Source: an uncultured Acidobacteriota bacterium (lineage in GTDB: Bacteria; Acidobacteriota; Vicinamibacteria; Vicinamibacterales; UBA2999). Taken from it: 64,000 nucleotides of DNA. The DNA lies in contig CAVPRP010000011.1 in NCBI GenBank assembly GCA_963707825.1, forward strand, positions 314,952 to 378,951, in the 5' to 3' direction. The translations under genes and the position numbers were made by a program. Positions 19,588-41,836 of the stretch are shown one piece after another (within the stretch, counting starts at the first letter, position 1; each line of letters begins with the position of its first letter). A model generated the notes under the pieces. The model was given only the letters and a program-made list of their open reading frames with translations. It ran no database searches and had not been told where the DNA came from.

Positions 19588-19597
19588 GCGCGACCGA

Positions 19598-25562: not shown

Positions 25563-25606
25563 CGCGGTTGTCTCCCTCTGCCGAATGGGCCGGAACTGCG
25601 GCCGGC

Positions 25607-27274: not shown

Positions 27275-27381
27275 AGTCCAGCGTCCTCATCATTGGTCCT
27301 TGCTTCAGTAGCGGGCACATGATAATCGATTGTCGCTTGCCGCCACCCTGACCGTTCAACGGGTCGGCGACCTTGGACGGG

Positions 27382-29319
27382 ATGGAACTCATGCAGCGAC
27401 ACATTAGCGCCGGCCTCATGCTCGGCGCGACCCTGCTCGCGACGCTGGTGACCGCGCAGGGGCCGGCGACAGATTTCAAGCCGGATACGGTCTTCGCCGG
27501 CAGCGGCCTGGGCGCGTGGACGGTGGTCGGAGACGGCGCCTGGACGGCCGAGAAGGGCGAGGTGACGGGGAAGGCCGGGCCCGGTGGGAGTTGGCTCGTG
27601 CTCGACCGCCCCTATCAGGACCTGAACTTCTTCTCGCGCTTCCGATGTTCGTCGCCCTGCGACGCCGGTGTGCTCTTTCGGGTGCAGGCCACCGCGGGCG
27701 GCCGCACCGGCATCCTGGTCTCGCTCAAGGACAGCGACCTGGGCACCTATCGCGTCACACTGGATGCGGCCGGGCGTCAGCTGAGCCGCGATCGCCTGCG
27801 GGCCGTGGGGCCGTTCGTGCGCAGCGCCCCGCCGGTCAGCCAGGATGGTGCGAAGCCGCCTGCGATTCAAACGGTCGGGGCCGGGCTGGGCGGTGCTCCA
27901 ATGACGTTGCCAACACCGCTGCCCGACCTGGATCCGCCCGCGCCGGGCGTGCGGCCGAACGACTGGAATCTGCTCAGCGTCGCCATCGACTCCGACGTCA
28001 TCCGTCCGACGCTGAATCACGGCATCGACTTCAGGGCCGGGGCCACCGAAGACCGCATGGGTTTCGGCCCAATCGCGCTCTACGTGAGCTCGGGCGAGGT
28101 GCGATTCAAGGACCTGGCCTTCAAGGATCTCCACGTCAAGACATTGGCGGCCGAAGCCGTTTCGCCCCGCTTCCGCATGCAGCGGCTCGACGACTTCTAC
28201 TATGCGTGGGGCGCCGGCGCCGGCGACTTCAATCGCGACGGCGTGCTCGACGTCGTGTCGGGCCCGTACTACTACCTCGGCCCCGCCTACACCACGCGCC
28301 ACGAGTTGTACGTGGCGCCGGCGCAGAGTCCCACCGCGAACTTCGCGCCGACCTGGACCGATTACGCGTTCGATTTCACCGGCGACGGCTGGACCGACGT
28401 CCTCACCGGCGAGAGCCGGCCGATGACGCTCTACGTCAACCCCAGGGGCGAGAATCGCCGCTGGGTGGGCCACAAGGTGCTGCCCCAGATCACCGGCGAG
28501 TTCACGGCGATGCAGGATCTCGATGGCGATGGCACGCCCGAGATCCTCTTCGTCACGGGCGGCTCCGGCGGAGCGGGCGGCACCATCTCCTATGCCAAGG
28601 TTCATCCCACCGACCCCACCCAGCCCTGGCCGGTGGTCGCGATCTCCGCCCCCGGGCTCGCTCACGGCCACGGCCTGGGGACCGGCGACATCAACGGCGA
28701 CGGTCGCAGCGACGTCGTGCAGGCGGCAGGGTGGTGGGAGCAGCCGGCGCAGGGCGCCGCCGGCCCGTGGCCCTATCACCCCGTGGCATTCGGCCGTTGG
28801 GGCCGGGCCGAAGGCGCCGGCGGGGCGCTGATGGCCGTCTATGACGTGAACGGCGACGGGCTGAACGACGTCGTGACCGGGCTGAACGCCCACGGGTTCG
28901 GCCTGGCCTGGTTCGAGCAAAAGCGCAACGCCGGCGGCGCGATTTCGTTCGTGCGCCACATGATCATCGACGACTACTCGACCAGGAACGCTGGCGGCGT
29001 CACCCTGTCGGAGATGCACGCGGCCGCTGTGGCCGACGTGGATGGCGACGGCATTCCCGACTTCATCACCGGTAAGCGGGTGTTCTCCCACCAGGAGAGC
29101 TACGTCGATCCGGATCCGTACGGCCTGCCGGCGTTGTACTGGTTCAGAACCGTGCGGAACCCCGCGGCGCCGGGCGGCGCCGAGTTCGTGCCCGAGTTGA
29201 TCCACAACCGCTCGGGCGTGGGCGCGCAGTTCACCGCCGTGGACCTCGACAAGGACGGCCGGGTGGACATCGTCACGGCGACCAATCGCGGCACGTTCAT
29301 CTTCTTCGGCACCCGGTAA
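27382..29319 (+). CDS. Exported DUF1080 (3-keto-disaccharide-hydrolase-like) + seven FG-GAP/VCBS repeat protein
   Basis: Has a signal peptide. The N-terminal about 230 aa end in GPIALYVSSGEVRFKDLAFKDL, a DUF1080-like pattern. Seven DxDGDG-type repeats follow (GDFNRDGVLDVV, DFTGDGWTDVL, DLDGDGTPEIL, GDINGDGRSDVV, YDVNGDGLNDVV, ADVDGDGIPDFI, VDLDKDGRVDIV). The start may be ATG 27382 or 27391; the track uses TTG 27373. Confidence 0.7.
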   Translation: MELMQRHISAGLMLGATLLATLVTAQGPATDFKPDTVFAGSGLGAWTVVGDGAWTAEKGEVTGKAGPGGSWLVLDRPYQDLNFFSRFRCSSPCDAGVLFRVQATAGGRTGILVSLKDSDLGTYRVTLDAAGRQLSRDRLRAVGPFVRSAPPVSQDGAKPPAIQTVGAGLGGAPMTLPTPLPDLDPPAPGVRPNDWNLLSVAIDSDVIRPTLNHGIDFRAGATEDRMGFGPIALYVSSGEVRFKDLAFKDLHVKTLAAEAVSPRFRMQRLDDFYYAWGAGAGDFNRDGVLDVVSGPYYYLGPAYTTRHELYVAPAQSPTANFAPTWTDYAFDFTGDGWTDVLTGESRPMTLYVNPRGENRRWVGHKVLPQITGEFTAMQDLDGDGTPEILFVTGGSGGAGGTISYAKVHPTDPTQPWPVVAISAPGLAHGHGLGTGDINGDGRSDVVQAAGWWEQPAQGAAGPWPYHPVAFGRWGRAEGAGGALMAVYDVNGDGLNDVVTGLNAHGFGLAWFEQKRNAGGAISFVRHMIIDDYSTRNAGGVTLSEMHAAAVADVDGDGIPDFITGKRVFSHQESYVDPDPYGLPALYWFRTVRNPAAPGGAEFVPELIHNRSGVGAQFTAVDLDKDGRVDIVTATNRGTFIFFGTR

Positions 29320-29335
29320 ACGAGGTGCGCCGGGC

Positions 29336-29385
29336 TTGACAACACCCAATAGAGTCACTAGAGTGCCGGTGGATCATCGATAATC
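29336..29385 (+). promoter_or_regulatory. Candidate promoter plus TCGATAATC site upstream of the TIM-barrel gene
   Basis: -35 TTGACA at 29336-29341, a 17-nt spacer, and -10 TAGAGT at 29359-29364. TCGATAATC at 29377-29385 is the reverse complement of GATTATCGA. Confidence 0.35.
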
Positions 29386-29408
29386 TATAAACATCGGTAC
29401 CAAACGCT

Positions 29409-30341
29409 ATGACCATTACTCGTCGCACCTTCTCACGCACTGTTGCCCTGGGTCTGGTCGGCGCAGCGCTGCCCGCGGCGGCTCAGCGCAAGTTGAACGT
29501 CAAGGTCGGGCACACCGGCATCACCTGGGCTTGGGGTAATGGCCCTCGGGGTGGCCCGGCCGGGCTCATCAGTCCGGATCCCATCATCGAGGTCGTCCGC
29601 GACGTCTCGGGCCTCGGCTTCCAAGGCCTCGAGTTGTTCGGCTGGCAGATCGAGGGGATGGAGAAGTTCGGCGGCCTTGGGCCGGTTCTGGAGAAATACA
29701 AGCTCCCGCTCGTCTCGAGCTACACCGGCGTCAACCTGACCGACCCGGCCCAGCGGCAGGCGACCATTGCCGCGGCTGTCACCACCGGCAAGCTCGTCAA
29801 GAAGCTCGGCGGCACAGTCATCGTCATCGGCCCCAACGGCGTGCCCCGCGACACCTACGATTTTGCCGCCAACAAGGCCAACATCCTCAGCGCGCTCAAC
29901 GAGGTGGGCCGGGCCTTGACCGACCTCGGGCCTGACGCCGGCCCTGCACCAGCACACCGGCACCTGCATCGAGATCGCGCGACGAGACCTACGCGTCATG
30001 GAGAGCGGTCGACACGCGGTACGTGAAGTTCGGGCCCGACATCGGCCAGCTTCAGAAGGGCGGCTCCGATCCGGTGCAGGTCGTCAAGGACTTCCTGCCG
30101 CTCGTCCATCACATGCACCTCAAGGACTACAGCGGCGGCGAGGCTTTCCTGGGCTACTGCCCGCTCGGCGAGGGCAAGGTCAACATGCCGGCGATCCTCG
30201 ACATGATGGACGGCAAGAAGATCGACGGCATGGTCATGGTCGAACTCGACGGCGGCCCGAACCAGCCGATTGCCGCCAAGGAGACGGCGACGATCGCCAA
30301 GGCCTATCTGGAGAAGCAGGGCGTCGTCACTGCGCGCCTGA
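29409..30341 (+). pseudogene. Tat-signal xylose-isomerase-like TIM-barrel protein (sugar phosphate isomerase/epimerase family) with about 3 frame disruptions
   Basis: MTITRRTFSRTVALGLVGAALPAAAQ is a twin-arginine signal. The body switches frame near 29928 and near 29975 (GLTPALHQHTGTCIE, then RDETYA..VDTRYVKFGPDIGQLQKGG...HMHLKDY). The only suitable stop before the next gene is TGA 30339-30341, in a third frame. The 3' end is uncertain. Confidence 0.65.
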
Positions 30342-30365
30342 GCGCGACCGAGGGGAGGCTCGTCG

Positions 30366-32612
30366 ATGCGCCGGTTCTACGCGATTCTCGCTGTCCTTGT
30401 GCTCGTCGTGGCCGCGCCGGCATTCGCGTACAACGCCAGCCCACCAACTGGAAGGACTACGGGGGCGCGCCGGACAACGCTCGCACTATGTCGCGCTCGA
30501 CCCAGATCACCAACGCTTCGAACTGTCAGCAAGCTCGACGTGGCCTGGTCGCTACCCCGAGCCGGACACGATTCGTACGTCTTCAATCCGCTCGTCGTCG
30601 ACAACGTCGCGTACGTGCTGGCCGCGCAACAACTCGCTCGTCGCCTCGACGCGACCACCGGCAAGGAGCTCTGGATCCACGAGCACCTGCGCGGCATCGC
30701 GCCGCGCGGCATCAACTACTGGGAGAGCAAGGACCGACGGACCGCCGGCTGCTGTTCCAGATGAACAGCTACCTGCAGGCGATCGATGCCCGACGGGCAA
30801 GTCGATCACGACGTTCGGCATCGACGGCGTGGTCAACCTTCGCGAAGGACTGCGGCGCGACCCGGCCGACGCTGGTGAAGGTGCAGTCGTCGAATCCCGG
30901 CAAGATTTTCGAGAACCTGATCATCCTCGGGTCCGCCCCCGGCGAAGGCTACCTGGCGCCGCCGGGCGACCTCCGCGCCTTCGACGTGCGTCACCGGCAA
31001 GCTGGCGTGGCAGTTCCACACCGTGCCGCACCCGGGCGAGTTCGGCTACGACACGTGGCCGAAGGACGCCTGGAAATACATCGGCGGCGCGAACAACTGG
31101 GGCGAGATCATCGATCGACGCGGAGCGCGGCATCGCCTACTTCCCGACCGGCTCGCCCACGTACGACTACTACGGCGCCGATCGCCTGGGCGCCAATCTC
31201 TTCGGCACGTCGCTGGTCGCGCTCGACGCGCGCACCGGCAAGCGGCTGTGGCACTTCCAGATGGTGCATCACGATCTCTGGGACTACGACAACACCGCCG
31301 CGCCGCAGCTGGCGACGGTCACGCACGACGGCAAGCCGATGGACATCGTCGCGCAGGCGGCGAAGACCGGATTCCTGTATGTGTTCGACCGCGTCACCGG
31401 CGAGCCGATCTGGCCCATCGAGGAGCGGCCGGTTCCGAAAGCGACGTGCCGGGCGAGAAGACCTGGCCGACGCAGCCGATTCCCACCATGCCGCCGCCGT
31501 TCGCCCGTCAGTCGCTCACCGCCGCCGACATCAATCCGTACATTCTCACCGGCAGGCAGCGTACCGAGTGGGAGAAGCGCATCGGCAGTGCGCGCAACGA
31601 GGGCCTCTTTACGCCACCCTCGTTCCGCGACACCGTATCGATCCCCGGCGCGCAAGGCGGCGCCAATTGGGGTACTACGGCGGCCGACCCTGCCCGTGGG
31701 CTCGTGTACGTCCTGAGCATCAACGTCCCGTCCATCTACAAGCTGAGCGCCGAAGCGCCACGCCCGGGAGGCCTGGCGCCGGTGGGACCGGCCGAAATCG
31801 CCGCGGGGCGCGCGCTCTACGAGCAGCGCTGTCAGTCGTGCCACGGCGGCAACATGATGGGTGGCGGCAACTATCCGTCGCTCGTCGATGTCGTCGGACG
31901 CCTGGGGGCCGACGGCGTGCGCGAGAAGATCAGCGGCGGCGGCCCCGGCATGCCGCCGAGCAACGATTTGACCGAGCCGCAGCTCGCGTCGCTGGTCGGG
32001 TTCCTCGCCAGCCCCTCGGGCATGCGGTCCGGCGGTTCCACGGATGGCGCGCCGGCGATGCCGCCGGGCCCCGTGGTCGCCTCGGGCGGTGCGCCGGCCG
32101 GCCAGAAGGTCCCGGAAGGGCGACCCGGTGGAATGGTCGGCCCCGATTACCCCAGCGGCATTCCCGTGCCCGAGGTGCGGATGTACACCGGCTATGGAAT
32201 GAACGGCACCATCGTCAAGCCGCCGTACTCCACCCTCACCGCGTACGACCTCAACACCGGGGCGATCAAGTGGCAGGTGCCGGCCGGCGGCGACGACGCC
32301 CGCGCGATCTCGGAGGGCGCCAAGGACACCGGCTACATCTTCCAGCGCACCGGGATCATCACCACGCCAACGGGGTTGCTGTTCCAGGCGGGCGGGGACG
32401 GCACGCTGCGCGTCTACGACTCCGACACCGGCCAGGTGCTGTGGACGGCATCACTGCCGGCCGGGTCGCGCGGGATCCCGGCGATGTACGAAGCCAACGG
32501 GCGCCAGTTCTTCCTGGTGAACGCGACCTCGAGCCAGGGTGGCGGCCCCGCTCGCACGCCGGCAGTGCCCGCCTACGTGGCGTTCGCGCTGCCTGAGGCC
32601 GTCGCGAAATGA
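30366..32612 (+). pseudogene. Exported PQQ-dependent dehydrogenase (glucose/quinate/shikimate family) with an internal cytochrome c domain; at least 12 frame disruptions in the first 1.1 kb
   Basis: RBS GAGGGGAGG and signal peptide MRRFYAILAVLVLVVAAPAFA. Conserved pieces alternate among all three frames between 30437 and 31450 ([94 protein letters not shown]...HHDLWDYD). One frame runs from 31450 to the end and includes CQSCH. Paralog of 47596-49858. Confidence 0.8.
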
Positions 32613-33649
32613 GCCGCAATCCGATTCTGGATTTTGGCATCGACCGGACGGCGCTCGGCTACATCGGCGAAGGCCTGCAACGTCCCGAGTGCATCCTCGC
32701 CGAGCCAGAGGGCACGCTGTGGTCGGCCGATGCCCGCGGCGGTGTCGTCCGCCTCGCCGACGGCGGTCAGCACCTGATCGCACAGGCGCACTCCGATCAC
32801 TTCCGGCAGGCGTCGTCGGAGGCGAGCCGCTATCTGGAAGGCACGCTCCCCAACGGCCTGGCCTTCGCCCGCAACGGCGACATCCTGATCTCCAACTTCG
32901 GGACCGATCGCCTGGAGGTGATGTCGCGCGACGGCCGATCGAACGTGCTCGCTGACAGCGTCAACGGGAAACCGGTCGGGAAGGTCAACTTCGTCCTGCG
33001 CGATTCCAAGGATCGCATCTGGGTGACCGTGTCGACGCGGGTCACCAACTGGATGCACGCGCTCCGGCTCGACCTCGCGGACGGCTACCTCGCGCGCCTC
33101 GACAACGGCACGCTGCGGATCGTGGCCGACGGCTTCCACTTCACCAACGAGATCCGGTTCGACGCCAAGGAGGAGTTCCTCTACGTCGTCGAGACGACCG
33201 GCGGCCGGATCACCCGCCTGCGCATCGACCCCTGCGGGGAAGTGAAGGAGCGCGAGATCTTCGGGCCGAGCAAACTCGGTTCGGGGGCGTGGCCGGACGG
33301 GATCGCGTTCGACAGCTACGGCAACTTGTGGGGCACGCTGGTCTATTCGGACAAGCTGTTCGTGCTGACGCCCGAGGGCGACATGCGCGTGCTGCTCGAT
33401 GAAGGCGATCCGGTGAAGGTCGCCGCGCTGGAGCAGGCGATCGCCGAGAATCGCGTCACCCACGACGTGTTGTTCGCCACCGGCCGGGGCGTCGCGCCGT
33501 GGATGGCCAGCGTGACGTTCGGCGGCCGGGATCTGCAGACGGCCTACATCGGCTCGCTGAAGGGGGATCGCATCCCGTTCTTCCGCGCTCCGGTGCCGGG
33601 TCTGCCGATGGTGCACTGGCACGAGGCCGCCAGCACGCCTTCGACGTAG
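32609..33649 (+). CDS. SMP-30/gluconolactonase/LRE-like beta-propeller protein
   Basis: ATGA overlap with the PQQ gene stop. 346 aa with no obvious signal peptide. The C-terminal 145 aa are near-identical to the fragment at 1-447. Confidence 0.85.
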   Translation: MSRNPILDFGIDRTALGYIGEGLQRPECILAEPEGTLWSADARGGVVRLADGGQHLIAQAHSDHFRQASSEASRYLEGTLPNGLAFARNGDILISNFGTDRLEVMSRDGRSNVLADSVNGKPVGKVNFVLRDSKDRIWVTVSTRVTNWMHALRLDLADGYLARLDNGTLRIVADGFHFTNEIRFDAKEEFLYVVETTGGRITRLRIDPCGEVKEREIFGPSKLGSGAWPDGIAFDSYGNLWGTLVYSDKLFVLTPEGDMRVLLDEGDPVKVAALEQAIAENRVTHDVLFATGRGVAPWMASVTFGGRDLQTAYIGSLKGDRIPFFRAPVPGLPMVHWHEAASTPST

Positions 33650-33689
33650 TGAAGCTCGCACCAACCAGTTGCACTGGAGGAGGATTTCG

Positions 33690-35651
33690 ATGACGCGTGG
33701 ACTCGGACGCTTCGCCGTACTTGCTGTGATACTCGTGTTCGGCGCGTTCGACCCGCCTGGTCTCATCGGCCAGCAAAGCCGCCACGAGCCTGGGGTTGCC
33801 GCCAACTTCGCCGCCGACGGCGCCTTCACTGGATCGAGCCTCACCGGCTGGCGTCCGGTGGGCGGCGCCACCTGGCGCGCCGAGAACGGCGAGATCATCG
33901 CCACGCCCGGGGCCACGGGCGGCTGGCTGCTCGCGGACAAGGCCTACGAAGACGTCTCCATGGTGGCCTCGTTCCGCTGCACCGGCGCCTGCACCACCGG
34001 CCTGCTGGTGCGGGCCGAGCCGACCCCGGGCGGCGGCACGAAGGGCATCCTGGTGTCCGTCACCGCCGAGGAGCGCGCGTTGTATCACGTCACGCTCGAC
34101 GCACAGGGCCGCGAGACGTCGCGGGATCGGCTGAGAGCACCGGCTCCCGGCCAGTTGCGCGTCGCGCCGCCAGCCCCGGCGACCCCGCCAACGCCACCTC
34201 CCGGCGGCGGCCGCGGGCCCGGTGGTCCGCCCCCGATGCCCGGAGGCATGGCGTCACCGATCGCGCGGCCCGAGAACACCGTCAAGGCCGGCGAGTGGAA
34301 CACCATCGAAGTGGCGCTCGACGCCAATATCGTGCGCGCCTTCCTGAACGACGCCGGCGGCATCCGCGACGGCGTGGCCGACCCCGAGTTCGGCGAGTTC
34401 GGGGCGATCGGGCTCTATGCCGGCGGCGCCGGCGAGGTGCGGTTCCGCAAGGTCGCCTACAAGAACCTGCACTCGCGGGTGGTGCCCACCGAACACCTGT
34501 CGAGCAAGTTCCGGCTCCAGGGCCTGACCAACTTCTACTACTCCTGGGGGCCCGCGATCGCCGACTTCAACAAGGACGGCTCGCCTGACATCGTCTCGGG
34601 TCAGTACTACTATCTTGGGCCCAACTACACCGAGGCGCGCCAGATCTACATTCGCGGCACGATCGACCCCGGGACTCAGTACTTCAACGGCCTGCAGTAC
34701 GCCTATGACTTCACCGGCGACGGCTGGCCGGACGTCCTGAACGCCGAGTTCACGCGGCCGGCGGTGCTGTTCGTGAACCCGAAGGGCGAGTCGCGCCGCT
34801 GGGAGACCTACACGGTCACCGACGTGATGTCGTGCGAATTCGTGCTGCTCAAGGACATCGACGGCGATGGCACGTCCGAGTTCCTGTTCAAGGACAGCGA
34901 GAACAAGTTCGTCTATGCCAAGCCCGACCCGGCGAATCCGACCGGGATGTGGATCAAGACCGCCATCAGCGAGCCAGGGCCGTGGGCCAACCACGGCATG
35001 GGCACCGGTGACATCAACGGCGACGGCCGCATCGACTTCGTCAACGCGTTCGGGTGGTGGGAACAGCCGGCGGCCAAGGGTCCGACCTGGACCTATCATC
35101 CGGCGGCGTTCGGCCGCTGGTCGCGGTCGAGCCCAGGCGGCGCCGAAATCGCCGTCTACGACGTCAACGGCGACGGCCTGAACGACGTCGTCACCTCGCT
35201 CCAGGCGCACGGCTGGGGCCTGTCGTGGTTCGAGCAGAAGAAGGCGGCCGACGGCACCCGGTCGTTCGTCGAGCACCAGATCATGGGCGACTTCTCGACG
35301 GTCAACGCCGGCGGGGTGACGTTCTCGGAGCTCCACGGCGCGACCTTCGCGGACATGGACGGCGACGGCCTGCCGGACTTCATCACCGGCAAGCGCCTCT
35401 GGGCCCACCTCGACACGTTCCTCGACCCCGACCCGCAAGGCGAGCCGGTGTTGTACATTTACCGCACGGTCCGCAATCCCAAGGCGCCCGGCGGGGCGGA
35501 GTTCGTCCCCGAGCTGGTGCACAATCGCTCGGGCGTCGGCTCACATGTCGCCGTCGCCGACTTGAACAAGGACGGCGCCCCCGAGATCATCACTGGCACG
35601 AAACTCGGGACGTTCATCTTCTGGAACCAGTGGAAGGGCGCCCGCCGCTGA
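33690..35651 (+). CDS. Exported DUF1080-like + FG-GAP/VCBS repeat protein (paralog of 27382-29319)
   Basis: RBS GGAGGAGG. Same architecture as the paralog: DUF1080-like part ending GAIGLYAGGAGEVRFRKVAYKNL, a Pro/Gly-rich linker, then seven DxDGDG repeats. Confidence 0.7.
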   Translation: MTRGLGRFAVLAVILVFGAFDPPGLIGQQSRHEPGVAANFAADGAFTGSSLTGWRPVGGATWRAENGEIIATPGATGGWLLADKAYEDVSMVASFRCTGACTTGLLVRAEPTPGGGTKGILVSVTAEERALYHVTLDAQGRETSRDRLRAPAPGQLRVAPPAPATPPTPPPGGGRGPGGPPPMPGGMASPIARPENTVKAGEWNTIEVALDANIVRAFLNDAGGIRDGVADPEFGEFGAIGLYAGGAGEVRFRKVAYKNLHSRVVPTEHLSSKFRLQGLTNFYYSWGPAIADFNKDGSPDIVSGQYYYLGPNYTEARQIYIRGTIDPGTQYFNGLQYAYDFTGDGWPDVLNAEFTRPAVLFVNPKGESRRWETYTVTDVMSCEFVLLKDIDGDGTSEFLFKDSENKFVYAKPDPANPTGMWIKTAISEPGPWANHGMGTGDINGDGRIDFVNAFGWWEQPAAKGPTWTYHPAAFGRWSRSSPGGAEIAVYDVNGDGLNDVVTSLQAHGWGLSWFEQKKAADGTRSFVEHQIMGDFSTVNAGGVTFSELHGATFADMDGDGLPDFITGKRLWAHLDTFLDPDPQGEPVLYIYRTVRNPKAPGGAEFVPELVHNRSGVGSHVAVADLNKDGAPEIITGTKLGTFIFWNQWKGARR

Positions 35652-35663
35652 CGGCGCCCAGGA

Positions 35664-38012
35664 TTGGACTACGGACGATTGGCAGACCCCGCTCGCCCGC
35701 GACGGGCACCGTGGCTGCTGCTGGCGGCCGCCGCAGGCCTGCTCGTGCTGGGCCTCGTCTACGCGAGGTTCGGCGGCTGGGGAGCCGCTGAGCAGCCTCT
35801 AGCGCCACCAGGCGAACGCGCCAACGGCGGCGGCCACCGCTATGCCGATCCGGCATCGTGTGCCGGCTGCCATGGCGGGATCGCGAGTACGTATGCGCTG
35901 ACCGGCATGGCCCGATCGCTCTCCAAGGTCGCGGCCGGGTCCGGTACGTCGCTGCCGGGAGTCACGGGAGGGCGCCTCTATCACGCCGCGTCCGATCGTC
36001 ACTACACGGTGACGCAGCGCGACGGGTCTCTGGTGCAACGCCGCCACCAGCTCGGGCCCGGCGGAGCCGAGGTGAACGTCCTCGAGGCCGCTGCCGACTA
36101 CGTGATTGGTTCCGGCAACCACGCGCGGACGTTCGTGAGCCGCGCGGCCGACGGCCGGCTGATGCAACTGCCTCTGAGCTGGTATGCCGAACGGGGCGGG
36201 CAGTGGGCGATGAGTCCCGGCTACGACCGGCCGGCCCACCTCGACTTCCGTCGCGTCATCGACGACGGCTGCATGTCGTGCCACAACGGCTATCCGCGCG
36301 AGGCCATTCGCGACAACGGGACCGGTCCGACGTTCCCCGCCGCGCTGCCCGAAGGCATCGATTGCCAGCGCTGTCATGGCCCCGGGCAGGAGCATGTCGA
36401 GGCGATGACCGCGGGCGATGTGGACCGCGGCCGGCGCGCCATCGTGAATCCGGGCACGCTCGGCCGTGACCGGCAGCTCGAGGTCTGCCTGCAGTGCCAC
36501 CTCGAGCCGACCAGCAGTCCGTTGCCGTTCCAGCTCCGCCGCGTCGGCCGGCCGCCGCTGTCGTATGTGCCGGGAACGCCGCTCGGGGACACGTTCATCT
36601 ACTTCGATCATGCGTCGACCCCGGCCCCGAACGATCGGCTGACCGACAAGTTCGAGATCGCCGGGTCCGCGTATCGGCTGGCGAAGTCGGCGTGCTTCCA
36701 GGGCAGTCAGATGACCTGCCTCACGTGCCACAACCCGCACGACGTGCCCCGCGGCGACGCCGCCGTGCAGCACTACACCAACGCCTGCCGGAGCTGCCAC
36801 CAGACGGTGCACGACACCGGCACTCCTCGGGTCGCCGGCGCCGGACCGCGCGCGACCTGCATCGACTGCCACATGCCGCGCCGCCGGACCGAGGATGCCG
36901 TCCACGTGGTGATGACGGATCACTTCATCCAGCGCGTCCGGCCAGCTCGCGACCTGACGGCGCCGCTCGAGGAAGCCGTGACCCTGGCCGCCAGTCGCTA
37001 CCAGGGCGAGGTGGCGCTGTACTATCCAGCGGCGCTGCCGCCGACGCCGGAATCCGAGCTCTATCTGGCGCTGGCCCAGGTGCAGCAGGGCGCCAACCTG
37101 GCCGCCGGCATCCCCCGGCTGCAGAAGGCCATCGAGAGTGCCGCCCCGGCGCCGGTCGAGTTCTACTACGAGCTGGCCCGCGCGCACGCCAAGGCCGGCA
37201 ACCAGGCGGAGGTCATCCGCTGGTCCGAGGCCGCGCTCTCCCGGGACGCCTCATTCGCCCCGGCGTTGAAGGAACTGGCCGGCGCGGCGACCGCACTCGG
37301 CCAGGGGGATCGCGCAATCGCTGCGCTGCAGCGCGCCGTGACGCTGCGGCCCAGTGACAGCCACGCGCTCGCCGACCTCGGCAATGTCTATCTCCAGCGG
37401 CAACGGCTCGCCGAAGCCGTGACGACCCTCGAGCGCGCCCTGGCGCTCGACGCCAGCCTGCCTCGCGCGAACAACAGCCTCGGCCTGGCGGTCATGGCGC
37501 TGGGCGATCGCGTCCGGGCGGAGCAGCAGTTTCGAGAAGCGATCCGCATCCAGCCCGACCTGGCCGAGGCGCACAGCAACCTCGCGAATCTGCTGGCCGG
37601 ACGTCACGCCTACGCTGAGGCCGCCGCGCACTTCGAGCAGGCCCTCCGCGCCGATCCGAATTACGCGGCAGCCCATCACGGCTATGGCCTGGTTCTGGCG
37701 CTGACGAAGCAGAATGCCCGCGCGGTGGCGGCGCTGCGCACCGCGGCCCGGCTGGAGCCGACGCGCGAACGGCTCCACACGGACATCGCCGACGTCCTGG
37801 CCGCCGCGGGAAATTCTCGCGAGGCGATGGCGGAGTACGGGCTGGCGCTCGAGGCGGACCCGAACGACTTCGATGCCCACTTCGGCCTGGCGGAACTACT
37901 GCTCGTTCAGGGCCGGACTGCACAGGCGATCCCGCATCTGCAGGCGGCTGCCACGAGCCCCGACAGGGCGCTGAGCGAGGCGGCCAAGGCGCGTCTATCC
38001 GCGTTTCGGTAG
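35664..38012 (+). CDS. Membrane-anchored multiheme c-type cytochrome (7 CxxCH) fused to a C-terminal TPR array
   Basis: N-terminal helix WLLLAAAAGLLVLGLVY. Heme motifs CAGCH, CMSCH, CQRCH, CLQCH, CLTCH, CRSCH and CIDCH. About 330 aa of TPR-like repeats follow. TTG start at 35664 (or 35679), 12 nt after the upstream stop. Confidence 0.8.
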   Translation: MDYGRLADPARPRRAPWLLLAAAAGLLVLGLVYARFGGWGAAEQPLAPPGERANGGGHRYADPASCAGCHGGIASTYALTGMARSLSKVAAGSGTSLPGVTGGRLYHAASDRHYTVTQRDGSLVQRRHQLGPGGAEVNVLEAAADYVIGSGNHARTFVSRAADGRLMQLPLSWYAERGGQWAMSPGYDRPAHLDFRRVIDDGCMSCHNGYPREAIRDNGTGPTFPAALPEGIDCQRCHGPGQEHVEAMTAGDVDRGRRAIVNPGTLGRDRQLEVCLQCHLEPTSSPLPFQLRRVGRPPLSYVPGTPLGDTFIYFDHASTPAPNDRLTDKFEIAGSAYRLAKSACFQGSQMTCLTCHNPHDVPRGDAAVQHYTNACRSCHQTVHDTGTPRVAGAGPRATCIDCHMPRRRTEDAVHVVMTDHFIQRVRPARDLTAPLEEAVTLAASRYQGEVALYYPAALPPTPESELYLALAQVQQGANLAAGIPRLQKAIESAAPAPVEFYYELARAHAKAGNQAEVIRWSEAALSRDASFAPALKELAGAATALGQGDRAIAALQRAVTLRPSDSHALADLGNVYLQRQRLAEAVTTLERALALDASLPRANNSLGLAVMALGDRVRAEQQFREAIRIQPDLAEAHSNLANLLAGRHAYAEAAAHFEQALRADPNYAAAHHGYGLVLALTKQNARAVAALRTAARLEPTRERLHTDIADVLAAAGNSREAMAEYGLALEADPNDFDAHFGLAELLLVQGRTAQAIPHLQAAATSPDRALSEAAKARLSAFR

Positions 38013-38047: not shown

Positions 38048-38086
38048 TTCTGCTTGACAACGATTTAACAGATACTCGATTATCGG
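38048..38086 (+). promoter_or_regulatory. Sigma70-like promoter in a conserved block (second copy of 438-476)
   Basis: -35 TTGACA at 38054-38059, an 18-nt spacer, and -10 GATTAT at 38078-38083. Matches the 438-474 block at 34 of 38 aligned positions. Lies 60 nt upstream of the TonB-receptor start. Confidence 0.5.
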
Positions 38087-38142
38087 TCGCCGTTACTGCC
38101 CGGGTGTTGCCACGCCGGGATTTGACATTTTTAGGAGGGCGC

Positions 38143-41100
38143 GTGCTGAAGAGATTTGGCGTCTCGACTCGGCTGGCTTTGCTAGCCGCTCTGCTGCTGT
38201 GGGCCGCCCCTGTGATGGCCCAGAGTTTCTACGGAGGGTTGGTGGCGGTGGTGAAAGACGACCAAGGCGGCGTCCTTCCCGGCGTCACCGTCGTCGTCGT
38301 CAATCAGTCCACTGGCGAGCGACGCGATGCGGTCAGCGCCGTGGATGGCAGCGCGCGCTTCACCAACCTGGTGCCCGGCCCGTATCGGGTCGAAGCGGAG
38401 CTCACGGGCTTCCAGCGCTTCGTGCGCGAAGGTATCGCGGTCAACGTCCAGACCAATCCTCTCATCGACATCACGCTGGCGCTCGGCAGCCTCTCGGAGA
38501 CGCTGACGGTCACTGGTCAGTCGCCGCTCCTGCAAACGCAGAACGCGTCGGTCGCCACGACGGTCGGCGCCCGGGCCGTGCAGGAGATGCCGCTGAACGG
38601 CCGCAACGTGCTCAACCTCATCTCGCTGGCCCCGTCGGTGGTCCCGCAGGGCGGCGCCGACGGCAGTCTGACCGGCAAGAACGTCTTTGCTGCCGGCAAC
38701 TACCAGATTGGTGGCGGCACGGCCAACCAGAGCGCGTCGTTCTTCGACGGCGTAACGGTGCAGGACACCGCCTACGGCAACATCGTGGTGCTGACGCCGA
38801 GTCCCGACTCGGTCGCGGAGTTCAGCGTCCAGACCAACAGCAGCAGCGCCGAGTTCGGCCGCTTCACCGGCGGCGTCGTCAACATGGCCTCGCGCTCGGG
38901 CTCCAACGCTTTCCGCGGCAGCATGTTCGAGTACCACCGCAACCGGGAACTCAACTCCAACACCTACTTCGGCGAGAAGGCCGGTCTGGACAAGCCGCCC
39001 TTCACCCAGAACAACTTCGGCGCTACATTCGGCGGTCCGATCAAGCAAAACAAGTTGTTCTTTTTCTCGAGCTACGAGGGCTACCGCAACCAGGAAGGCA
39101 TTCTGCTGCGCCGCACCGTGCCGACGGCGGCGATGACCGCGGGCGACTTCTCCGACTTCCGCAACCAGACCACCGGGGCAGTCGTGCCGATCTACGACCC
39201 GTGGACGCAGTGCGGCATCAACAACCCCGGGTCGGGAGCCTACAACGGCGATTGCGGCACGGTGCCGAACCGCCTCCAGTTCCCCGGCAACATCATCCCG
39301 TCCAACCGCATCAACCCGATCGCCCGCTCGTTGCTGGCCTTCCCGATCTACGCCGCCCCGACCGTCTCGGGCCCGTGGCGCAACAACAACTACGAGACGA
39401 ACGCCCAGATCGGCGGCGACAACAACCAGCTGAATCTCCGCGGTGACTACAACGCCAGCCAGAACGTCCGCATGATCGGCCGGTACACCCGGATGGACTC
39501 GACCAACGCCCCGGTCGATCTCTACGGCAACGGCCAGTTGAACGGCGACCCGTATTCGCCCGAACACTTCATCACCACCCAGGCGATGCTGGCCAGCACC
39601 TGGACCATCAACTCGAGCACGGTGTTCGACGCCCGCGTCGGGTTCCTGCGCTGGGACTACGACCGCGAGCCGGGCAACCTTGGCATCAACCTCACGCAGC
39701 AGTTCGGTTTCGCGCAGACGCCGTACGGCGAGATCTCCCAGCGCAGTGGCATCCCGGGGATGGAGACGATTCCCAGCATCGCGGTCACCAACAACAACAC
39801 GATCAACACCGGCCTGATCTACGCCGACGACCGCACCTACACGATCACGCCGACGCTGACGAAGATCAAGGGCGACCACACGCTCAAGGTGGGCGCCAAC
39901 TGGCTGCGCGGCGAAGTCAACTACTTCCAGAACAACAATCCTGGCGGCACGTTCAACTTCACCAACGCGCCGACGGCGCTCGACGGCACCAACCCCGGCA
40001 GCACGGGCGACGGGTTCGCGGCGTTGCTGCTCGGGCTGCCCACCGGCGGCACCTACCAGTCCTCGAGCTACACCTACGGTCGCTCCGTCTACCAGGCCTA
40101 CTTCGCCGAAGACTCCTGGCAGGTGAGCAACAAACTGACCGTGAACCTCGGGCTGCGCTGGGAGATTCCCGGCGTCTTCACAGAGAGAGACGACAACCTG
40201 AGCACGTTCAATCCCGACGTGGTCAACCCGCTGCTGACCGGGATCATGAATCCGGTCACCGGGCAGCCGTTCCTTGGTGCCTTCGAGCTGGTGAACACCC
40301 CAGAGCGGCCCGGTCGAGGCATGCGGCACAACCCGCTCGATCAGTTGGCGCCGCGCGTCGGCTTCGCGTATCAGCTCACCCCCAGCACGGTGATCCGCGG
40401 TGGCGGCGGCAAGTTCATCATCCCCTCGACGGTGCGGTTCCCCGACGGCCCGACCGGACACGGCATCAACCAGCGCGTCAACAACATGCAGCCCAGTGTC
40501 GACAACAACCGGACATTCGTCGCCGACCTGACCAACCCGTTCCCGAACGGCGTGGAGAACTACCCCGGCCGCAGCGACAACTTCCAGCAGGTGCTGCTGG
40601 GCGGCGGCGCCAACCAGTTCATCTACGACCCCGCCGGTTACCCTGGTTCCGCGTATCAGTGGAACATCGCGGTACAGCACCAGTTCGGCAGCGACTTCTC
40701 GGTGGAGGCCACCTACACGGGTCTCGACGGCAACCATCTGCCGAACACCCTCAACTACAACCAGCTCGGGCTGGAGCACGTCAACCGCGCCGCCAACGAC
40801 ACGTTCGGTGTGCAGTCTGACGAACAACGTGATCATCCCGTTCGGCGCGGACGGCTACGCCTCGAACCAGCGCGACACCTGCTACGGCGCCTACCTGCGC
40901 CAGCAGGTGCCCAATCCCTTCGTCGGCCTGATTCGCGAGGGGTCGCTGGCCACGGCCACCGTCCAGCGCGCCCTGCTCCTGTTGCAGTTTCCGCAGTATG
41001 CGTCGGCCAATCAGCCCGGTTACGACGGCAAGAGCCGCTACAACGCACTGCAGCTGCGCGCCGACAAACGCTTCGGTGCCGGCAGCATCATCAGCGCCAA

Positions 41101-41836
41101 CTACACCTTCTCGCAGAACCTGACCAACGCTGAGACGGTGACCAACTGGCTCGAATCCGGCGCCGGGAATCCGACGGCCGGCTACCAGACCAACGATCTC
41201 GACAAGGAATACTCGCTGAGCGGCTTCGACGCCCGGCACCGTGCCGTGCTCAACTATGTCCTCGACCTGCCCTTCGGCCCGGGCCGTCGCTACTTCGGCG
41301 ACACCAGCGGGTTCGTCGGCGCACTCGTCGGCGGCTGGAGCGTCAACGGCGTCACCACTCTCCAGGCCGGCTTGCCCCTCGCGTTCTCCGCCACGCCGAA
41401 TCTCGTCGGCTTCGGCTACGGCCTGCGCCCGAACGTCGTCGAAGGCTGCGACAAGAGCGTCTCGGGGTCGGAAGAAGAACGGCTCAACCAGTGGTTCAAC
41501 ACCGCCTGCTATGTGGTGCCGAACGCCGGGTTCGTCGCCGCCGATCCGGCGAGCGACCCGCGGCAGCGCTGGGCTCTCGGCAATGCGGAGCGCGTCGATC
41601 CCGATCTGCGCGCCCACGGCGTCCACAACTGGAACTTCGCCGTGTCGAAGCAGACGCGCCTGGGTGGCCAGGTCAACCTGACCCTGCGCGCTGAGGCGTT
41701 CAACCTGTTCAACCGGGTGCAATTCGGCCCGCCCAACACCACGGCGAGCACCGCCGCAACAGCGAACTTCGGCCAGGTGACGACCCAGGCCAATCAACCG
41801 CGCCTCATCCAGATTGCCGCGCGGTTGTCGTTCTAG
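38143..41836 (+). pseudogene. TonB-dependent receptor with N-terminal CarboxypepD_reg domain; single frame disruption near 40806-40812
   Basis: GTG follows AGGAGGG, with signal peptide LLAALLLWAAPVMAQ. GVTVVVVNQSTGERRDAVSAVDGSARFTNLVPGPYRV is the CarboxypepD_reg domain. A plug and barrel follow, and the C-terminus ...RLIQIAARLSF ends in Phe. The N-terminal part ends at ...AANDTFG and continues in ORF 40808-41836. Length is 1 mod 3. Confidence 0.85.

What the first reader, a model, noticed from the sequence alone, without database searches (positions are those of the whole stretch)
27275..38012. Candidate periplasmic PQQ/cytochrome-c-linked glycoside oxidation module
One strand carries the following genes back to back:
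- an exported DUF1080-like + 7x FG-GAP protein
- a Tat-signal xylose-isomerase-like TIM barrel
- an exported PQQ propeller with a built-in cytochrome c
- an SMP-30 propeller (ATGA-coupled to the PQQ gene)
- a second DUF1080+FG-GAP paralog
- a membrane-anchored 7-heme cytochrome-TPR protein
A TonB-dependent receptor follows immediately.

Pfam family PF06439 (DUF1080) is named 3-keto-disaccharide hydrolase. Xylose-isomerase-like TIM barrels supply the eliminating or lyase step in known 3-keto-glycoside and C-glycoside cleavage routes. In those routes the oxidase is a Gfo/Idh/MocA or FAD/GMC enzyme. Here that position appears to be filled by a PQQ-cytochrome c enzyme, with a plausible electron sink in the multiheme protein.

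I do not know of a described system with this composition. The functional link between these genes is inference only.
Basis: partly seen in the sequence, partly recalled or inferred. Interest (0 to 1): 0.78.

Follow-up and report, generated by a model that had tools for sequence, protein, structure and literature searches.

The report
Conserved periplasmic PQQ sugar-oxidation gene module

Summary
All seven genes exist at the stated coordinates. The XI-like TIM barrel, the PQQ-cytochrome c gene and the outer-membrane receptor carry single-base frameshifts. These are assembly noise: a 96-98% identical contig has different indels, and a cleaner relative has every gene intact in the same order.

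Neighbourhood conservation (80 species-level genome loci):
- The DUF1080+FG-GAP gene lies within 2.5 kb of the PQQ-cyt c gene in 15 loci (17 near, 0 far; P=6e-10). These include Vicinamibacterales, Acidobacteriaceae, Chitinophaga, a flavobacterial SusC/SusD locus and Rhodothermales.
- Signal-bearing XI-like TIM barrels of two unrelated subfamilies, and ThuA, also recur next to it.
- The SMP-30 protein has no signal peptide.
- The multihaem-TPR gene was found only in Vicinamibacterales-type relatives.

Best reading (about 0.5): PQQ-cyt c oxidises a ring hydroxyl of a TonB-imported carbohydrate, the exported TIM barrel then performs an elimination, and a dedicated cytoplasmic route degrades the product. 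Plain aldose C1 oxidation remains a serious rival. No description of this module was found in the literature searched. I rate it a new variant of known 3-keto-glycoside systems.

The parts
27373..29319 (+). Exported DUF1080-like + 7-bladed FG-GAP propeller protein (copy A)
   Evidence: PF06439 at 40.2 bits, FG-GAP and FG-GAP_3. Seven DxDxDG loops. N-terminal hydrophobic signal. Intact 640-aa ortholog in L164.
29409..30341 (+). Tat-signal xylose-isomerase-like TIM barrel (IolE-like); frameshifted in this assembly
   Evidence: PF01261, E=9e-20. Frameshifts at 29928, 29974 and 30326. Intact at 308-309 aa in L001 and L164. An RRxF motif is present in 7 of 8 aligned orthologs (the eighth has RREV), and H180, H182, D210, H236 and E278 are invariant. 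Best PDB profile match is IolE 3cny, 6.7e-15.
30366..32612 (+). Exported PQQ-dependent dehydrogenase (8-bladed, mGDH-like) with a cytochrome c domain inserted in the propeller; 12 frameshifts in this assembly
   Evidence: GC3 frame plot. Frameshift-aware alignment gives 747 aa. TIGR03074 at 355 bits, below its cutoff. PDB quinohaemoprotein ADH 1yiq, 4.6e-41. Gcd residues D466, K493, W404 and D730 are conserved. Intact 749-aa ortholog in L164.
32609..33649 (+). SMP-30/gluconolactonase-family protein; start overlaps the PQQ stop (ATGA); no signal peptide
   Evidence: PF08450, E=6.7e-20. ATGA junction. Orthologs are 67-79% identical across phyla, and none of the six with an unambiguous start has a signal peptide.
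33669..35651 (+). Exported DUF1080-like + FG-GAP propeller protein (copy E)
   Evidence: PF06439 at 57.3 bits, FG-GAP. Seven DxDxDG loops. More than 2600 homologs with E<=1e-20. AF2 model plus Foldseek: FG-GAP propeller (ITFG2), DUF1080 structures and CBM66.
35664..38012 (+). Membrane-anchored heptahaem c-type cytochrome with C-terminal TPR domain
   Evidence: Seven CXXCH motifs at residues 66-399. Paired_CXXCH, Cytochrome_C7 and TPR families. Present in relatives L001-L004, L164 and L166 only.
38104..41836 (+). TonB-dependent-receptor-type outer-membrane barrel (frameshift near 40800)
   Evidence: CarboxypepD_reg, OMP_b-brl_4 (446 + 229 bits) and TonB_dep_Rec_b-barrel. Intact at 1206 aa in L164. 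The equivalent position holds SusC/SusD in L008.
41909..44062 (+). Transketolase-like ThDP enzyme (conserved module member)
   Evidence: Transketolase_N, _pyr and _C. NF004559 at 275 bits, below its cutoff. 52-73% identical copies in L008, L010, L012, L016, L024 and L044. 718 aa in L164.
44063..44449 (+). Small cupin protein (read as fused to the transketolase-like ORF in this assembly)
   Evidence: Cupin_2 at residues 758-826 of the fused ORF. A separate 127-aa gene in L164.
44509..46056 (+). CoA-acylating (methyl)malonate-semialdehyde dehydrogenase-type ALDH (conserved module member)
   Evidence: TIGR01722 at 688 bits, above its cutoff of 448.5. The L010 ortholog scores 553 bits. Also present in L003, L004, L008, L012, L044 and L045.
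46183..47500 (+). Polytopic membrane protein, probable transporter (no Pfam match; 3' end uncertain because of a frameshift)
   Evidence: Translation shows multiple hydrophobic segments. No Pfam hit.
47596..49858 (+). Second PQQ-cytochrome c dehydrogenase paralog
   Evidence: tblastn: 54% identity to the reference PQQ-cyt c. PQQ and Cytochrome_CBB3 families.

Best explanation
This is a periplasmic 'oxidise, then eliminate' carbohydrate-catabolic module, wired to the respiratory chain and followed by a dedicated cytoplasmic route.

Proposed sequence (all enzyme steps are inferred):
1. A TonB-dependent outer-membrane transporter imports a glycoside, oligosaccharide or related ring polyol. In Bacteroidota the transporter is SusC/SusD.
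2. The exported PQQ dehydrogenase oxidises a secondary ring hydroxyl to a ketone. It passes the electrons through its built-in cytochrome c domain to periplasmic acceptors.
3. The Tat-exported, metal-dependent XI-like TIM barrel (IolE-like) removes the proton next to the new ketone. It then eliminates the neighbouring leaving group, either an aglycone or water.
4. The exported DUF1080-like/FG-GAP protein, the most faithful neighbour of the PQQ gene, binds or further processes the carbohydrate.
5. The keto product is taken up by YdcZ or another permease. It is then degraded by the SMP-30-like hydrolase, SDR/Zn-ADH, a transketolase-like ThDP enzyme and a CoA-acylating (methyl)malonate-semialdehyde dehydrogenase.

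Shown: gene content, export signals, domain families, conserved catalytic-type residues, and conserved linkage across phyla.

Inferred: every enzymatic step, the position of oxidation, and the substrate.
For: Linkage to DUF1080+FG-GAP:
- It lies within 2.5 kb of the PQQ-cyt c gene in 15 of 80 species-level genome loci: 17 near, 0 far, P=6e-10 against position within the flanks.
- It is adjacent in 6 of 13 full-length loci found by searching from the DUF1080+FG-GAP side.
- It is still adjacent where the PQQ protein is only 42% identical.

XI-like TIM barrels:
- Two non-orthologous PF01261 subfamilies sit beside the PQQ gene.
- Positional enrichment is 9 near, 6 far, P=0.011.
- Seven of the eight aligned subfamily-1 proteins carry an RRxF Tat motif, the eighth has RREV, and the subfamily-2 protein of L014 has RRTF. 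H, H, D, H and E metal/catalytic-type residues are invariant.
- The profile is closest to IolE, a dehydratase of a ring ketone.

Other partners:
- ThuA genes are adjacent in L007, L010, L015 and L092.
- A more distant PQQ-cyt c locus has two PF01261 genes plus a single-domain DUF1080.

Whole-module conservation:
- Autumnicola psychrophila has ECF sigma, FecR, SusC, SusD, PQQ-cyt c, DUF1080+FG-GAP, YdcZ, XI-TIM, ALDH, SGL, Zn-ADH, SDR and TK in one direction.
- The same set occurs in L010, L012 and L164.

Literature:
- XI-like TIM barrels and DUF1080 proteins act on 3-keto-glycosides in the periplasm. Cytochrome c-dependent periplasmic glycoside 3-dehydrogenases (LacABC, ThuAB) exist.

PQQ enzyme:
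- It keeps Gcd catalytic residues D466, K493, W404 and D730 but not H262, which I recall (not checked here) as linked to glucose affinity.
- Its family also includes quinate/shikimate dehydrogenases, which oxidise secondary ring alcohols (established knowledge).
Against: - No activity data exist for any member.
- The best family match of the PQQ enzyme is the glucose/quinate/shikimate group, and sources name homologs 'quinoprotein glucose dehydrogenase'. C1 oxidation of free aldoses is therefore plausible.
- The PQQ gene is translationally coupled to an SMP-30/lactonase-family gene. The window is also rich in oxidative (Weimberg-type) pentose genes and a GH51 arabinofuranosidase.
- The DUF1080-like domain appears to lack the GNSG and E-x-Q motifs of ordinary single-domain DUF1080 proteins (alignment tentative) and resembles CBM66.
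- The XI-TIM profile matches IolE far better than 8tct (2.7e-4), which I infer, without proof, to be the characterised 3-keto-glucoside lyase.
- 57 of 80 loci with a PQQ-cyt c homolog have none of the three partners within 2.5 kb.
Confidence: 0.5

Rival explanations
1. Plain periplasmic aldose oxidation. The PQQ-cyt c enzyme is a soluble glucose/xylose/arabinose 1-dehydrogenase that makes a sugar lactone. The lactone, or the aldonate derived from it, is imported and hydrolysed by the co-translated SMP-30 lactonase. It then feeds the Weimberg-type genes elsewhere in the window. The DUF1080/FG-GAP protein is a glycan-binding or glycan-cleaving helper for the TonB system, and the TIM barrel is an unrelated sugar isomerase.
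For: - TIGR03074 is the best family hit, and homologs are named 'quinoprotein glucose dehydrogenase'.
- D466, K493 and W404 of E. coli Gcd are conserved.
- The PQQ stop overlaps the SGL start (ATGA). The SGL ortholog co-occurs in L003, L004, L008, L012, L024, L044, L045 and L095.
- The window holds GH51, aldose epimerases, SDR+SGL, IlvD/Edd, FAH and ALDH.
- L086 places DUF1080+FG-GAP with GH3, SGL and two enolase-type dehydratases, with no PQQ gene.
Against: - None of the six SGL orthologs with an unambiguous start has a signal peptide, while the PQQ enzyme is exported.
- In L010 a cyclase-family hydrolase sits where other loci have the SGL gene.
- An aldose-to-aldonate route does not explain three things: the recurrent signal-bearing XI-like TIM barrels of two subfamilies, ThuA, or the conserved transketolase-like enzyme plus (methyl)malonate-semialdehyde dehydrogenase.
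- Gcd H262, which I recall as linked to glucose affinity, is Gly here.
Confidence: 0.25
2. Cyclitol (inositol-like) or other non-glycosidic ring-polyol catabolism. The PQQ enzyme makes an inosose-type ketone, as membrane PQQ quinate and inositol dehydrogenases do. The IolE-like TIM barrel dehydrates it to a diketone. The transketolase-like ThDP enzyme plays the ring-cleaving role of IolD and the cupin that of IolB. The MMSDH (IolA-type) converts malonate semialdehyde to acetyl-CoA.
For: - The best hits for XI-TIM are IolE: TIGR04379 at 68-80 bits, and PDB 3cny at 6.7e-15.
- The ALDH passes the MMSDH/IolA-type model (688 bits, above 448.5).
- The Zn-ADH hits the IolM model at 179 bits.
- A ThDP enzyme and a cupin are conserved next to the ALDH.
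- The PQQ family includes quinate/shikimate dehydrogenases.
Against: - The IolE score is far below the equivalog cutoff of 290.
- BT2156 of the known 3-keto-glycoside operon is likewise described as 'IolE-like', so the IolE resemblance does not discriminate.
- IolD belongs to a different ThDP family from transketolase (established knowledge).
- No IolC kinase or IolJ aldolase was seen in the genes scanned.
- SusC/SusD and TonB import, the lectin-like DUF1080/FG-GAP partner and ThuA point to glycans rather than small cyclitols.
Confidence: 0.15
3. Cofactor or metal supply rather than catabolism. The TonB-type receptor and the Ca2+-loop-rich FG-GAP protein import or chaperone PQQ or lanthanide/calcium for the neighbouring PQQ dehydrogenases.
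For: - Each DUF1080+FG-GAP protein has seven DxDxDG metal-binding-type loops.
- The PQQ enzyme has the D-x-D motif (WDYD) that a 2026 preprint treats as lanthanide-type. The same preprint proposes periplasmic lanthanide-binding proteins working with TonB transporters.
- DUF1080+FG-GAP is sometimes adjacent to the receptor alone (L086-L088).
Against: - The lanthanide cargo protein proposed in that preprint is a small protein of about 120 aa, unrelated to FG-GAP.
- E. coli Gcd, which to my knowledge is not a lanthanide enzyme, also has D-x-D.
- This reading does not explain the XI-TIM, ThuA, SGL, TK and MMSDH partners, or the SusC/SusD plus ECF/anti-sigma context.
Confidence: 0.05

Closest known systems
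BT2156-BT2160 / AL1-AL4 3-keto-glycoside pathway of Bacteroides and Alistipes (Liu 2021, PMC8121099; Nasseri 2024, bioRxiv 10.1101/2024.03.25.586180)
   Same: Both use periplasmic enzymes. Both include an exported XI-like ('IolE-like') TIM barrel with His/Asp/His metal ligands and a catalytic Glu, and an exported DUF1080 protein. The logic is oxidation followed by elimination and hydration.
   Different: In the known system the oxidase is a Tat-exported Gfo/Idh/MocA enzyme with tightly bound NAD, re-oxidised by reducing the 3-keto product. Here that place is taken by a PQQ-cytochrome c enzyme. The DUF1080 domain is fused to an FG-GAP propeller and lacks canonical motifs. The module also has extra cytoplasmic genes (TK-like, MMSDH).
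LacABC + DUF1080 (Caulobacter) and ThuAB (Agrobacterium/Sinorhizobium) periplasmic glycoside 3-dehydrogenases
   Same: Glycosides are oxidised in the periplasm with electrons passed to cytochrome c. DUF1080 genes lie nearby in the LacABC systems, and ThuA-family genes lie beside some PQQ-cyt c loci.
   Different: According to the papers cited, LacABC and ThuAB are dehydrogenases of other kinds: LacABC is membrane-bound, and ThuAB is unrelated to LacABC. Neither is described as a PQQ enzyme. No PQQ enzyme has been reported in this role in the literature searched.
Membrane-bound PQQ glucose/quinate/shikimate dehydrogenases (TIGR03074; E. coli Gcd)
   Same: Both have the 8-bladed PQQ propeller, with D466, K493, W404, T424 and D730 conserved. 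This is the best family match, at 355 bits.
   Different: This enzyme has no N-terminal 5-helix membrane anchor and has a signal peptide instead. H262 and H775 are missing. A cytochrome c domain is inserted in the propeller, so electrons go to cytochromes rather than ubiquinone. The score is far below the family cutoff of 832.
Type II quinohaemoprotein alcohol dehydrogenases (PDB 1yiq, 1kv9, 1kb0)
   Same: Both are soluble periplasmic PQQ propellers with a covalently attached cytochrome c. These are the best solved-structure matches, at 4.6e-41.
   Different: Their cytochrome domain is C-terminal, not inserted. The match covers only the N-terminal half. The vicinal Cys-Cys of alcohol dehydrogenases is absent here (GIAPRG instead).
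Fungal AA12 pyranose dehydrogenase (Coprinopsis cinerea PDH; PMC4332668)
   Same: It is a quinohaemoprotein that carries PQQ, a cytochrome and a carbohydrate-binding domain.
   Different: It has a six-bladed sGDH-type fold, a cytochrome b domain and a CBM1, all in one eukaryotic secreted protein. It is not homologous to the 8-bladed enzyme here.

Membership tests
BT2156-2160 / AL1-4 type 3-keto-glycoside cleavage system | Exported Gfo/Idh/MocA oxidoreductase that makes the 3-keto-glycoside | tested here: not met
   No Gfo/Idh/MocA gene lies in 27.3-41.9 kb. The only one nearby (20455-21426) has no Tat or Sec signal.
BT2156-2160 / AL1-4 type 3-keto-glycoside cleavage system | Exported XI-like TIM barrel with His/Asp/His metal site and catalytic Glu (AL1/BT1) | tested here: inconclusive
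   PF01261 with a Tat motif. H180, H182, D210, H236 and E278 are invariant in 8 orthologs, paralleling AL1 H178, H180, D211, H237 and E272. However, the profile match to 8tct (presumed AL1/BT1) is only 2.7e-4, against 6.7e-15 for IolE.
BT2156-2160 / AL1-4 type 3-keto-glycoside cleavage system | DUF1080 enzyme with the conserved BT2 channel residues (E103, N134, E164, Q166, Y190, K245, Q273, H275) | tested here: inconclusive
   The domain passes the PF06439 threshold (40-62 bits). In a MAFFT alignment the GNSG and E-x-Q motifs seen in ordinary single-domain DUF1080 proteins are replaced (C-x-T/A-G and L/V-x-S). The correspondence of these motifs to BT2 N134 and E164/Q166 is my inference. The alignment is weak, and the model has pLDDT 60.
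BT2156-2160 / AL1-4 type 3-keto-glycoside cleavage system | Demonstrated turnover of 3-keto-glycosides | not testable with these tools
   Needs enzyme assays.
Membrane-bound PQQ glucose/quinate/shikimate dehydrogenase (TIGR03074) | Score above the curated cutoff and an N-terminal multi-helix membrane anchor | tested here: not met
   355 bits against a cutoff of 832.65. The match covers profile positions 150-613 only. The N-terminus is a cleavable-type signal.
Membrane-bound PQQ glucose/quinate/shikimate dehydrogenase (TIGR03074) | Catalytic and PQQ-site residues of E. coli Gcd | tested here: inconclusive
   D466, K493, W404, T424 and D730 are conserved. H262 is Gly, H775 is absent, and D354/N355 are E/G.
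Type II quinohaemoprotein alcohol dehydrogenase | Vicinal Cys-Cys ring over PQQ and a C-terminal cytochrome c domain | tested here: not met
   No CC pair at the aligned position. The cytochrome domain (about residues 470-550) is followed by about 200 residues of propeller.
myo-Inositol catabolic (iol) pathway | IolE, IolA, IolD, IolG, IolC and IolJ equivalogs | tested here: not met
   Only the IolA-type MMSDH passes its model (688 bits, above 448.5). IolE scores 68 against a cutoff of 290. The ThDP enzyme is of the transketolase family, not IolD-type. No IolG-type enzyme is exported. IolC and IolJ were not seen in the ORFs scanned.
TonB-dependent outer-membrane transporter | Barrel plus plug domains | tested here: inconclusive
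   OMP_b-brl_4 (446 + 229 bits), TonB_dep_Rec_b-barrel (3.8e-8) and CarboxypepD_reg were found. No Plug domain was reported at E<=0.01.

The most novel reading that the evidence does not exclude
The mGDH-like PQQ-cytochrome c proteins of this clade are a new, widespread class of periplasmic glycoside (ring-hydroxyl) dehydrogenases. With exported XI-like TIM barrels and DUF1080/FG-GAP proteins they would form a respiratory-chain-coupled, non-Koshland route of glycoside cleavage in soil Acidobacteriota and Bacteroidota. The resulting keto-sugar would be consumed by a previously unknown transketolase-like / malonate-semialdehyde pathway instead of being reduced back to a common sugar.
Probability: 0.3. 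Interest if true: 0.8.

Novelty: new variant of a known kind. Interest (0 to 1): 0.62.

Why it matters
Non-hydrolytic glycoside cleavage through 3-keto intermediates was only recently worked out, and only with NAD- or flavin-type oxidases. If a PQQ/cytochrome c enzyme does this job, three things follow:
- Abundant soil bacteria (Vicinamibacterales, other Acidobacteriota, Chitinophaga, flavobacteria) would gain respiratory energy directly from the first step of glycan breakdown.
- Thousands of genes now auto-named 'quinoprotein glucose dehydrogenase' would be misread. That name is used as a marker of phosphate solubilisation in soil metagenomics.
- A large family of unannotated DUF1080/FG-GAP proteins would gain a context.

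The module is present in cultured strains, so the question can be tested directly.

Tried and rejected
Methods that failed or were replaced:
- Plain tblastn with a composite reference did not resolve the frames of the PQQ gene. I replaced it with a frameshift-aware dynamic-programming alignment. The first run used a wrong-frame reference and was redone.
- The permitted alignment gave only pLDDT 60, so the Foldseek matches are domain-level only.
- Looking up PDB codes 8V31 and 8TCT in the papers gave nothing. That these entries are the AL2 and AL1/BT1 structures remains my inference.

Literature:
- Searches for PQQ with 3-keto-glycosides, PULs, quinohaemoproteins in Acidobacteria, or DUF1080/FG-GAP found no description of this module.

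Hypotheses rejected:
- Pseudogenes. The indels differ between 96-98% identical contigs, and the genes are intact in L164.
- The multihaem-TPR protein as a general electron sink. It was found only in Vicinamibacterales-type relatives. There, in L003, L004 and L166, it follows a PQQ dehydrogenase paralog (no cytochrome c domain recorded in L166) that the window lacks.
- An entirely periplasmic aldose-lactone-aldonate route served by the SMP-30 protein. That protein has no signal peptide.

Full report
**The sequence itself**

The window is about 68% G+C. Between 27.3 and 41.9 kb the + strand carries seven genes, separated by 89, 24, -4, 19, 12 and 91 nt.

- PF06439 (40.2 and 57.3 bits; cutoff 26.8) plus FG-GAP in 27373-29319 and 33669-35651.
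- PF01261 in 29409-30341.
- SGL in 32609-33649.
- Paired-CXXCH, cytochrome c7 and TPR in 35664-38012.
- CarboxypepD_reg, OMP_b-brl_4 and TonB_dep_Rec barrel in 38104-41836.

Further details:
- Each DUF1080/FG-GAP protein has exactly seven DxDxDG loops.
- The cytochrome has seven CXXCH motifs behind an N-terminal hydrophobic anchor.
- The PQQ stop and the SGL start overlap as ATGA.
- The XI-like protein begins MTITRRTFS, a twin-arginine motif.
- The SGL protein has no room for a signal peptide. An in-frame stop lies 12 nt upstream of its ATG.

**Frameshifts**

A GC3 frame plot and three-frame translation show the reading frame jumping repeatedly between 29.9 and 31.5 kb. A frameshift-aware alignment recovers a 309-aa TIM barrel with net shifts at 29928, 29974 and 30326. 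It also recovers a 747-aa PQQ-cytochrome c protein with 12 shifts between 30424 and 31439.

These are assembly errors, not decay:
- Contig L001 is 96-98% identical in DNA and carries different indels. Its TIM barrel is intact, while both of its DUF1080/FG-GAP genes are split.
- In a cleaner relative (L164, NCBI GCA_050250955.1) every gene is intact in the same order. Sizes are DUF1080/FG-GAP 640 aa, TIM barrel 308, PQQ-cyt c 749, SGL 346 (again overlapping), DUF1080/FG-GAP 636, multihaem-TPR 780, receptor 1206, transketolase-like 718, cupin 127, then ALDH.

**The PQQ enzyme**

- Its best curated family is the membrane-bound glucose/quinate/shikimate group (TIGR03074, 355 bits, far below the cutoff of 832). 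The match covers only the periplasmic propeller.
- The best solved structures are type II quinohaemoprotein alcohol dehydrogenases, over the N-terminal half only.
- Against E. coli Gcd, residues D466, K493, W404, T424 and D730 are conserved. H262 is Gly, H775 is absent, and there is no membrane anchor.
- A cytochrome c domain of about 90 residues (CQSCH) is inserted before the last blades.
- The enzyme is therefore a soluble, cytochrome-linked relative of mGDH with a different substrate pocket.
- Sources name its homologs 'quinoprotein glucose dehydrogenase'.

**Conservation seen from the PQQ gene**

A scan of one genome per species returned 80 loci. I mapped neighbours by tblastn and by HMMs on six-frame translations.
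- DUF1080+FG-GAP lies within 2.5 kb of the PQQ gene in 15 loci and never further out: 17 near, 0 far, P=6e-10 given that the near zone is 29% of the flank bases.
- The carriers are Vicinamibacterales, Acidobacteriaceae, other Acidobacteriota, Chitinophaga and Chitinophagaceae, the flavobacterium Autumnicola psychrophila and a Rhodothermales MAG.
- XI-like TIM barrels are enriched near the gene (9 near, 6 far, P=0.011).
- They belong to two non-orthologous PF01261 subfamilies. One is the window's type. The other sits between the PQQ and DUF1080/FG-GAP genes in Chitinophaga and matches an uncharacterised planctomycete structure, 4ovx.
- Seven of the eight aligned members of the window's subfamily carry an RRxF motif, the eighth has RREV, and the L014 protein of the second subfamily begins MQRRTFL.
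- ThuA genes flank the PQQ gene in L007, L010, L015 and L092.
- Pfam-annotated contigs for more distant homologs agree. L171 (42% identity) has DUF1080/FG-GAP immediately upstream plus a receptor. L168 (44%) has two PF01261 genes and a single-domain DUF1080.
- In a rough NJ tree the linked genes fall in several subclades of one large clade. They are absent from a separate clade, mostly Bacteroidota, at 37-42% identity.

**Conservation seen from the DUF1080/FG-GAP gene**

- Of 13 full-length metagenome loci, 6 have the PQQ-cyt c gene adjacent.
- Others sit next to a receptor or to single-domain DUF1080 genes.
- One (L086) lies among GH3, SGL, SDR and two enolase-type dehydratases.
- The link is therefore frequent but not obligatory.

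**The wider module**

Autumnicola psychrophila has, in one direction: ECF sigma, FecR, SusC, SusD, PQQ-cyt c, DUF1080/FG-GAP, YdcZ, XI-TIM, ALDH, SGL (67% identical to the window's), Zn-ADH, SDR and a transketolase-like gene. The same cytoplasmic set recurs in L010, L012, L024 and L044 and in the window.
- The window's ALDH passes the CoA-acylating (methyl)malonate-semialdehyde dehydrogenase model (688 bits, cutoff 448.5). The L010 ortholog scores 553 bits.
- The transketolase-like protein is 52-73% identical across phyla and is nearest to human-type and split-chain transketolases in the PDB.
- In L010 a cyclase-family hydrolase sits where other loci have the SGL gene.
- The SGL orthologs with an unambiguous start, and the SDRs, lack signal peptides.

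The multihaem-TPR gene is different. It was found only in Vicinamibacterales-type relatives (L001-L004, L164, L166). In L003, L004 and L166 it follows a PQQ dehydrogenase paralog (no cytochrome c domain recorded for the L166 copy) that the window lacks.

**Comparison with known systems**

- In Bacteroides and Alistipes, an exported Gfo/Idh/MocA enzyme oxidises glycosides at C3. An exported XI-like ('IolE-like') TIM barrel then eliminates the aglycone from beta-anomers. An exported DUF1080 protein eliminates alpha-anomers and hydrates the glycal.
- In Caulobacter, the cytochrome c-dependent LacABC works with DUF1080 proteins. ThuAB is another cytochrome-dependent periplasmic 3-dehydrogenase.
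- The present module has three partner families linked to that chemistry but no exported Gfo or GMC enzyme. The only Gfo gene nearby is cytoplasmic.
- The window's TIM barrel keeps H180, H182, D210, H236 and E278, which parallel AL1 H178, H180, D211, H237 and E272.

Points against a straight transfer of function:
- The TIM-barrel profile matches IolE (6.7e-15) far better than 8tct (2.7e-4), which I infer to be AL1/BT1.
- The DUF1080-like domain seems to have lost the GNSG and E-x-Q motifs. Its modest model also resembles CBM66.

**Weighing the readings**

The recurrent signal-bearing TIM barrels, ThuA and the DUF1080 fold argue that the PQQ product is a ring ketone processed in the periplasm. 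Outer-membrane import through TonB or SusC/SusD argues for a glycoside or oligosaccharide. The TK-like and MMSDH pair argues that the product enters a dedicated degradative route. I give this 'oxidise then eliminate' reading about 0.5.

Plain C1 oxidation of aldoses (about 0.25) is favoured by the family name, the ATGA-coupled lactonase-type gene, and the pentose-oxidation context of the window: GH51, epimerases, SDR+SGL, IlvD/Edd, FAH and ALDH. It does not explain the exported TIM barrels or the cytoplasmic location of the SGL protein.

An inositol-like cyclitol route (about 0.15) is suggested by the combination of IolE-like, IolA-type, ThuDP... correction: ThDP and cupin genes. It fails the iol membership tests.

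A cofactor or metal-supply role (about 0.05) is speculative.

**Novelty**

None of six literature searches found this module. I rate it a new variant of a known kind. The decisive experiment is product analysis of the purified enzyme.

Noticed in passing
window 29928-31439; also 25607-27274 (-), about 40800, 44063, about 47400-47590, about 49300: Single-base indels, not in homopolymer runs, break many genes: SDR/SGL fused, receptor split, transketolase-like and cupin fused, transporter and second PQQ gene shifted. The 96-98% identical contig L001 has different indels, so this is long-read-type assembly noise.
   Followed up: yes
window 47596-49858 (+), preceded by 46183-~47500 (+): A second PQQ-cytochrome c paralog (54% identical to the reference used) lies downstream of the MMSDH gene. 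A polytopic membrane protein with no Pfam match precedes it.
   Followed up: partly
window 8964-10776 (-): A third PQQ dehydrogenase, alcohol-dehydrogenase-like (about 26% identity to the module's enzyme), lies on the minus strand. It also appears frameshifted.
   Followed up: no
window 4694-8228 and 15609-16541, 17006-27274: The window holds a Weimberg-type oxidative pentose set: FAH-family 4694-5626, ALDH 5386-7194, SGL 7230-8228, IlvD/Edd 15609-16541. It also has two aldose epimerases, MFS sugar transporters, IclR and GntR regulators, a cytoplasmic Gfo enzyme, a GH51 arabinofuranosidase and an SDR+SGL pair. The whole window reads as a hemicellulose/pentose island.
   Followed up: partly
window 1-2013: A partial second copy of module genes sits at the window edge. 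The 3' end of an SGL paralog (1-447) is 87% identical in DNA to the module's SGL gene. It is followed by an SDR (681-1469) and a YdcZ transporter (1507-2013).
   Followed up: partly
window 442-486, 29334-29370, 38052-38096: The exact 10-mer GCTTGACAAC occurs three times, each in a + strand intergenic gap of the module or its partial copy. The copies at 442 and 38052 share a motif of about 45 nt (TTCTGCTTGACAAC..ATTTA..GATACTCGATTATCG), with TTGACA and a -10-like element. This is probably a shared promoter/operator. GntR/FCD regulators accompany the module in relatives.
   Followed up: partly
window about 31270-31290 (PQQ residues 302-307, HHDLWDYD): The PQQ enzyme has the D-x-D motif that a 2026 preprint (10.64898/2026.07.10.737718) treats as a lanthanide-binding signature in 8-bladed PQQ 'glucose dehydrogenases'. 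E. coli Gcd has it too (WDMD).
   Followed up: partly
L003 15027-17000, L004 15317-17200, L166 9025-11037: In some Vicinamibacterales-type relatives a PQQ dehydrogenase paralog (no cytochrome c domain on record in L166) sits between the DUF1080/FG-GAP gene and the multihaem-TPR gene. In L166 a YdcZ gene lies between it and the multihaem-TPR gene. This hints that the multihaem protein serves that enzyme. The window lacks this gene.
   Followed up: partly
L045 (CAVZUL010000004.1): A MAG labelled 'uncultured Alphaproteobacteria' carries a locus nearly identical to Vicinamibacterales locus L003. The contig is probably mis-binned or mislabelled.
   Followed up: no
L010 14381-17492; L166 and L171: ThuA followed by a DUF7133/HEAT/cytochrome c protein ('PVC-type haem-binding CxxCH protein') lies next to the module in a Chitinophagaceae MAG. 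DUF6807 genes lie next to it in two Acidobacteriota contigs. These are further uncharacterised families that travel with this module.
   Followed up: no
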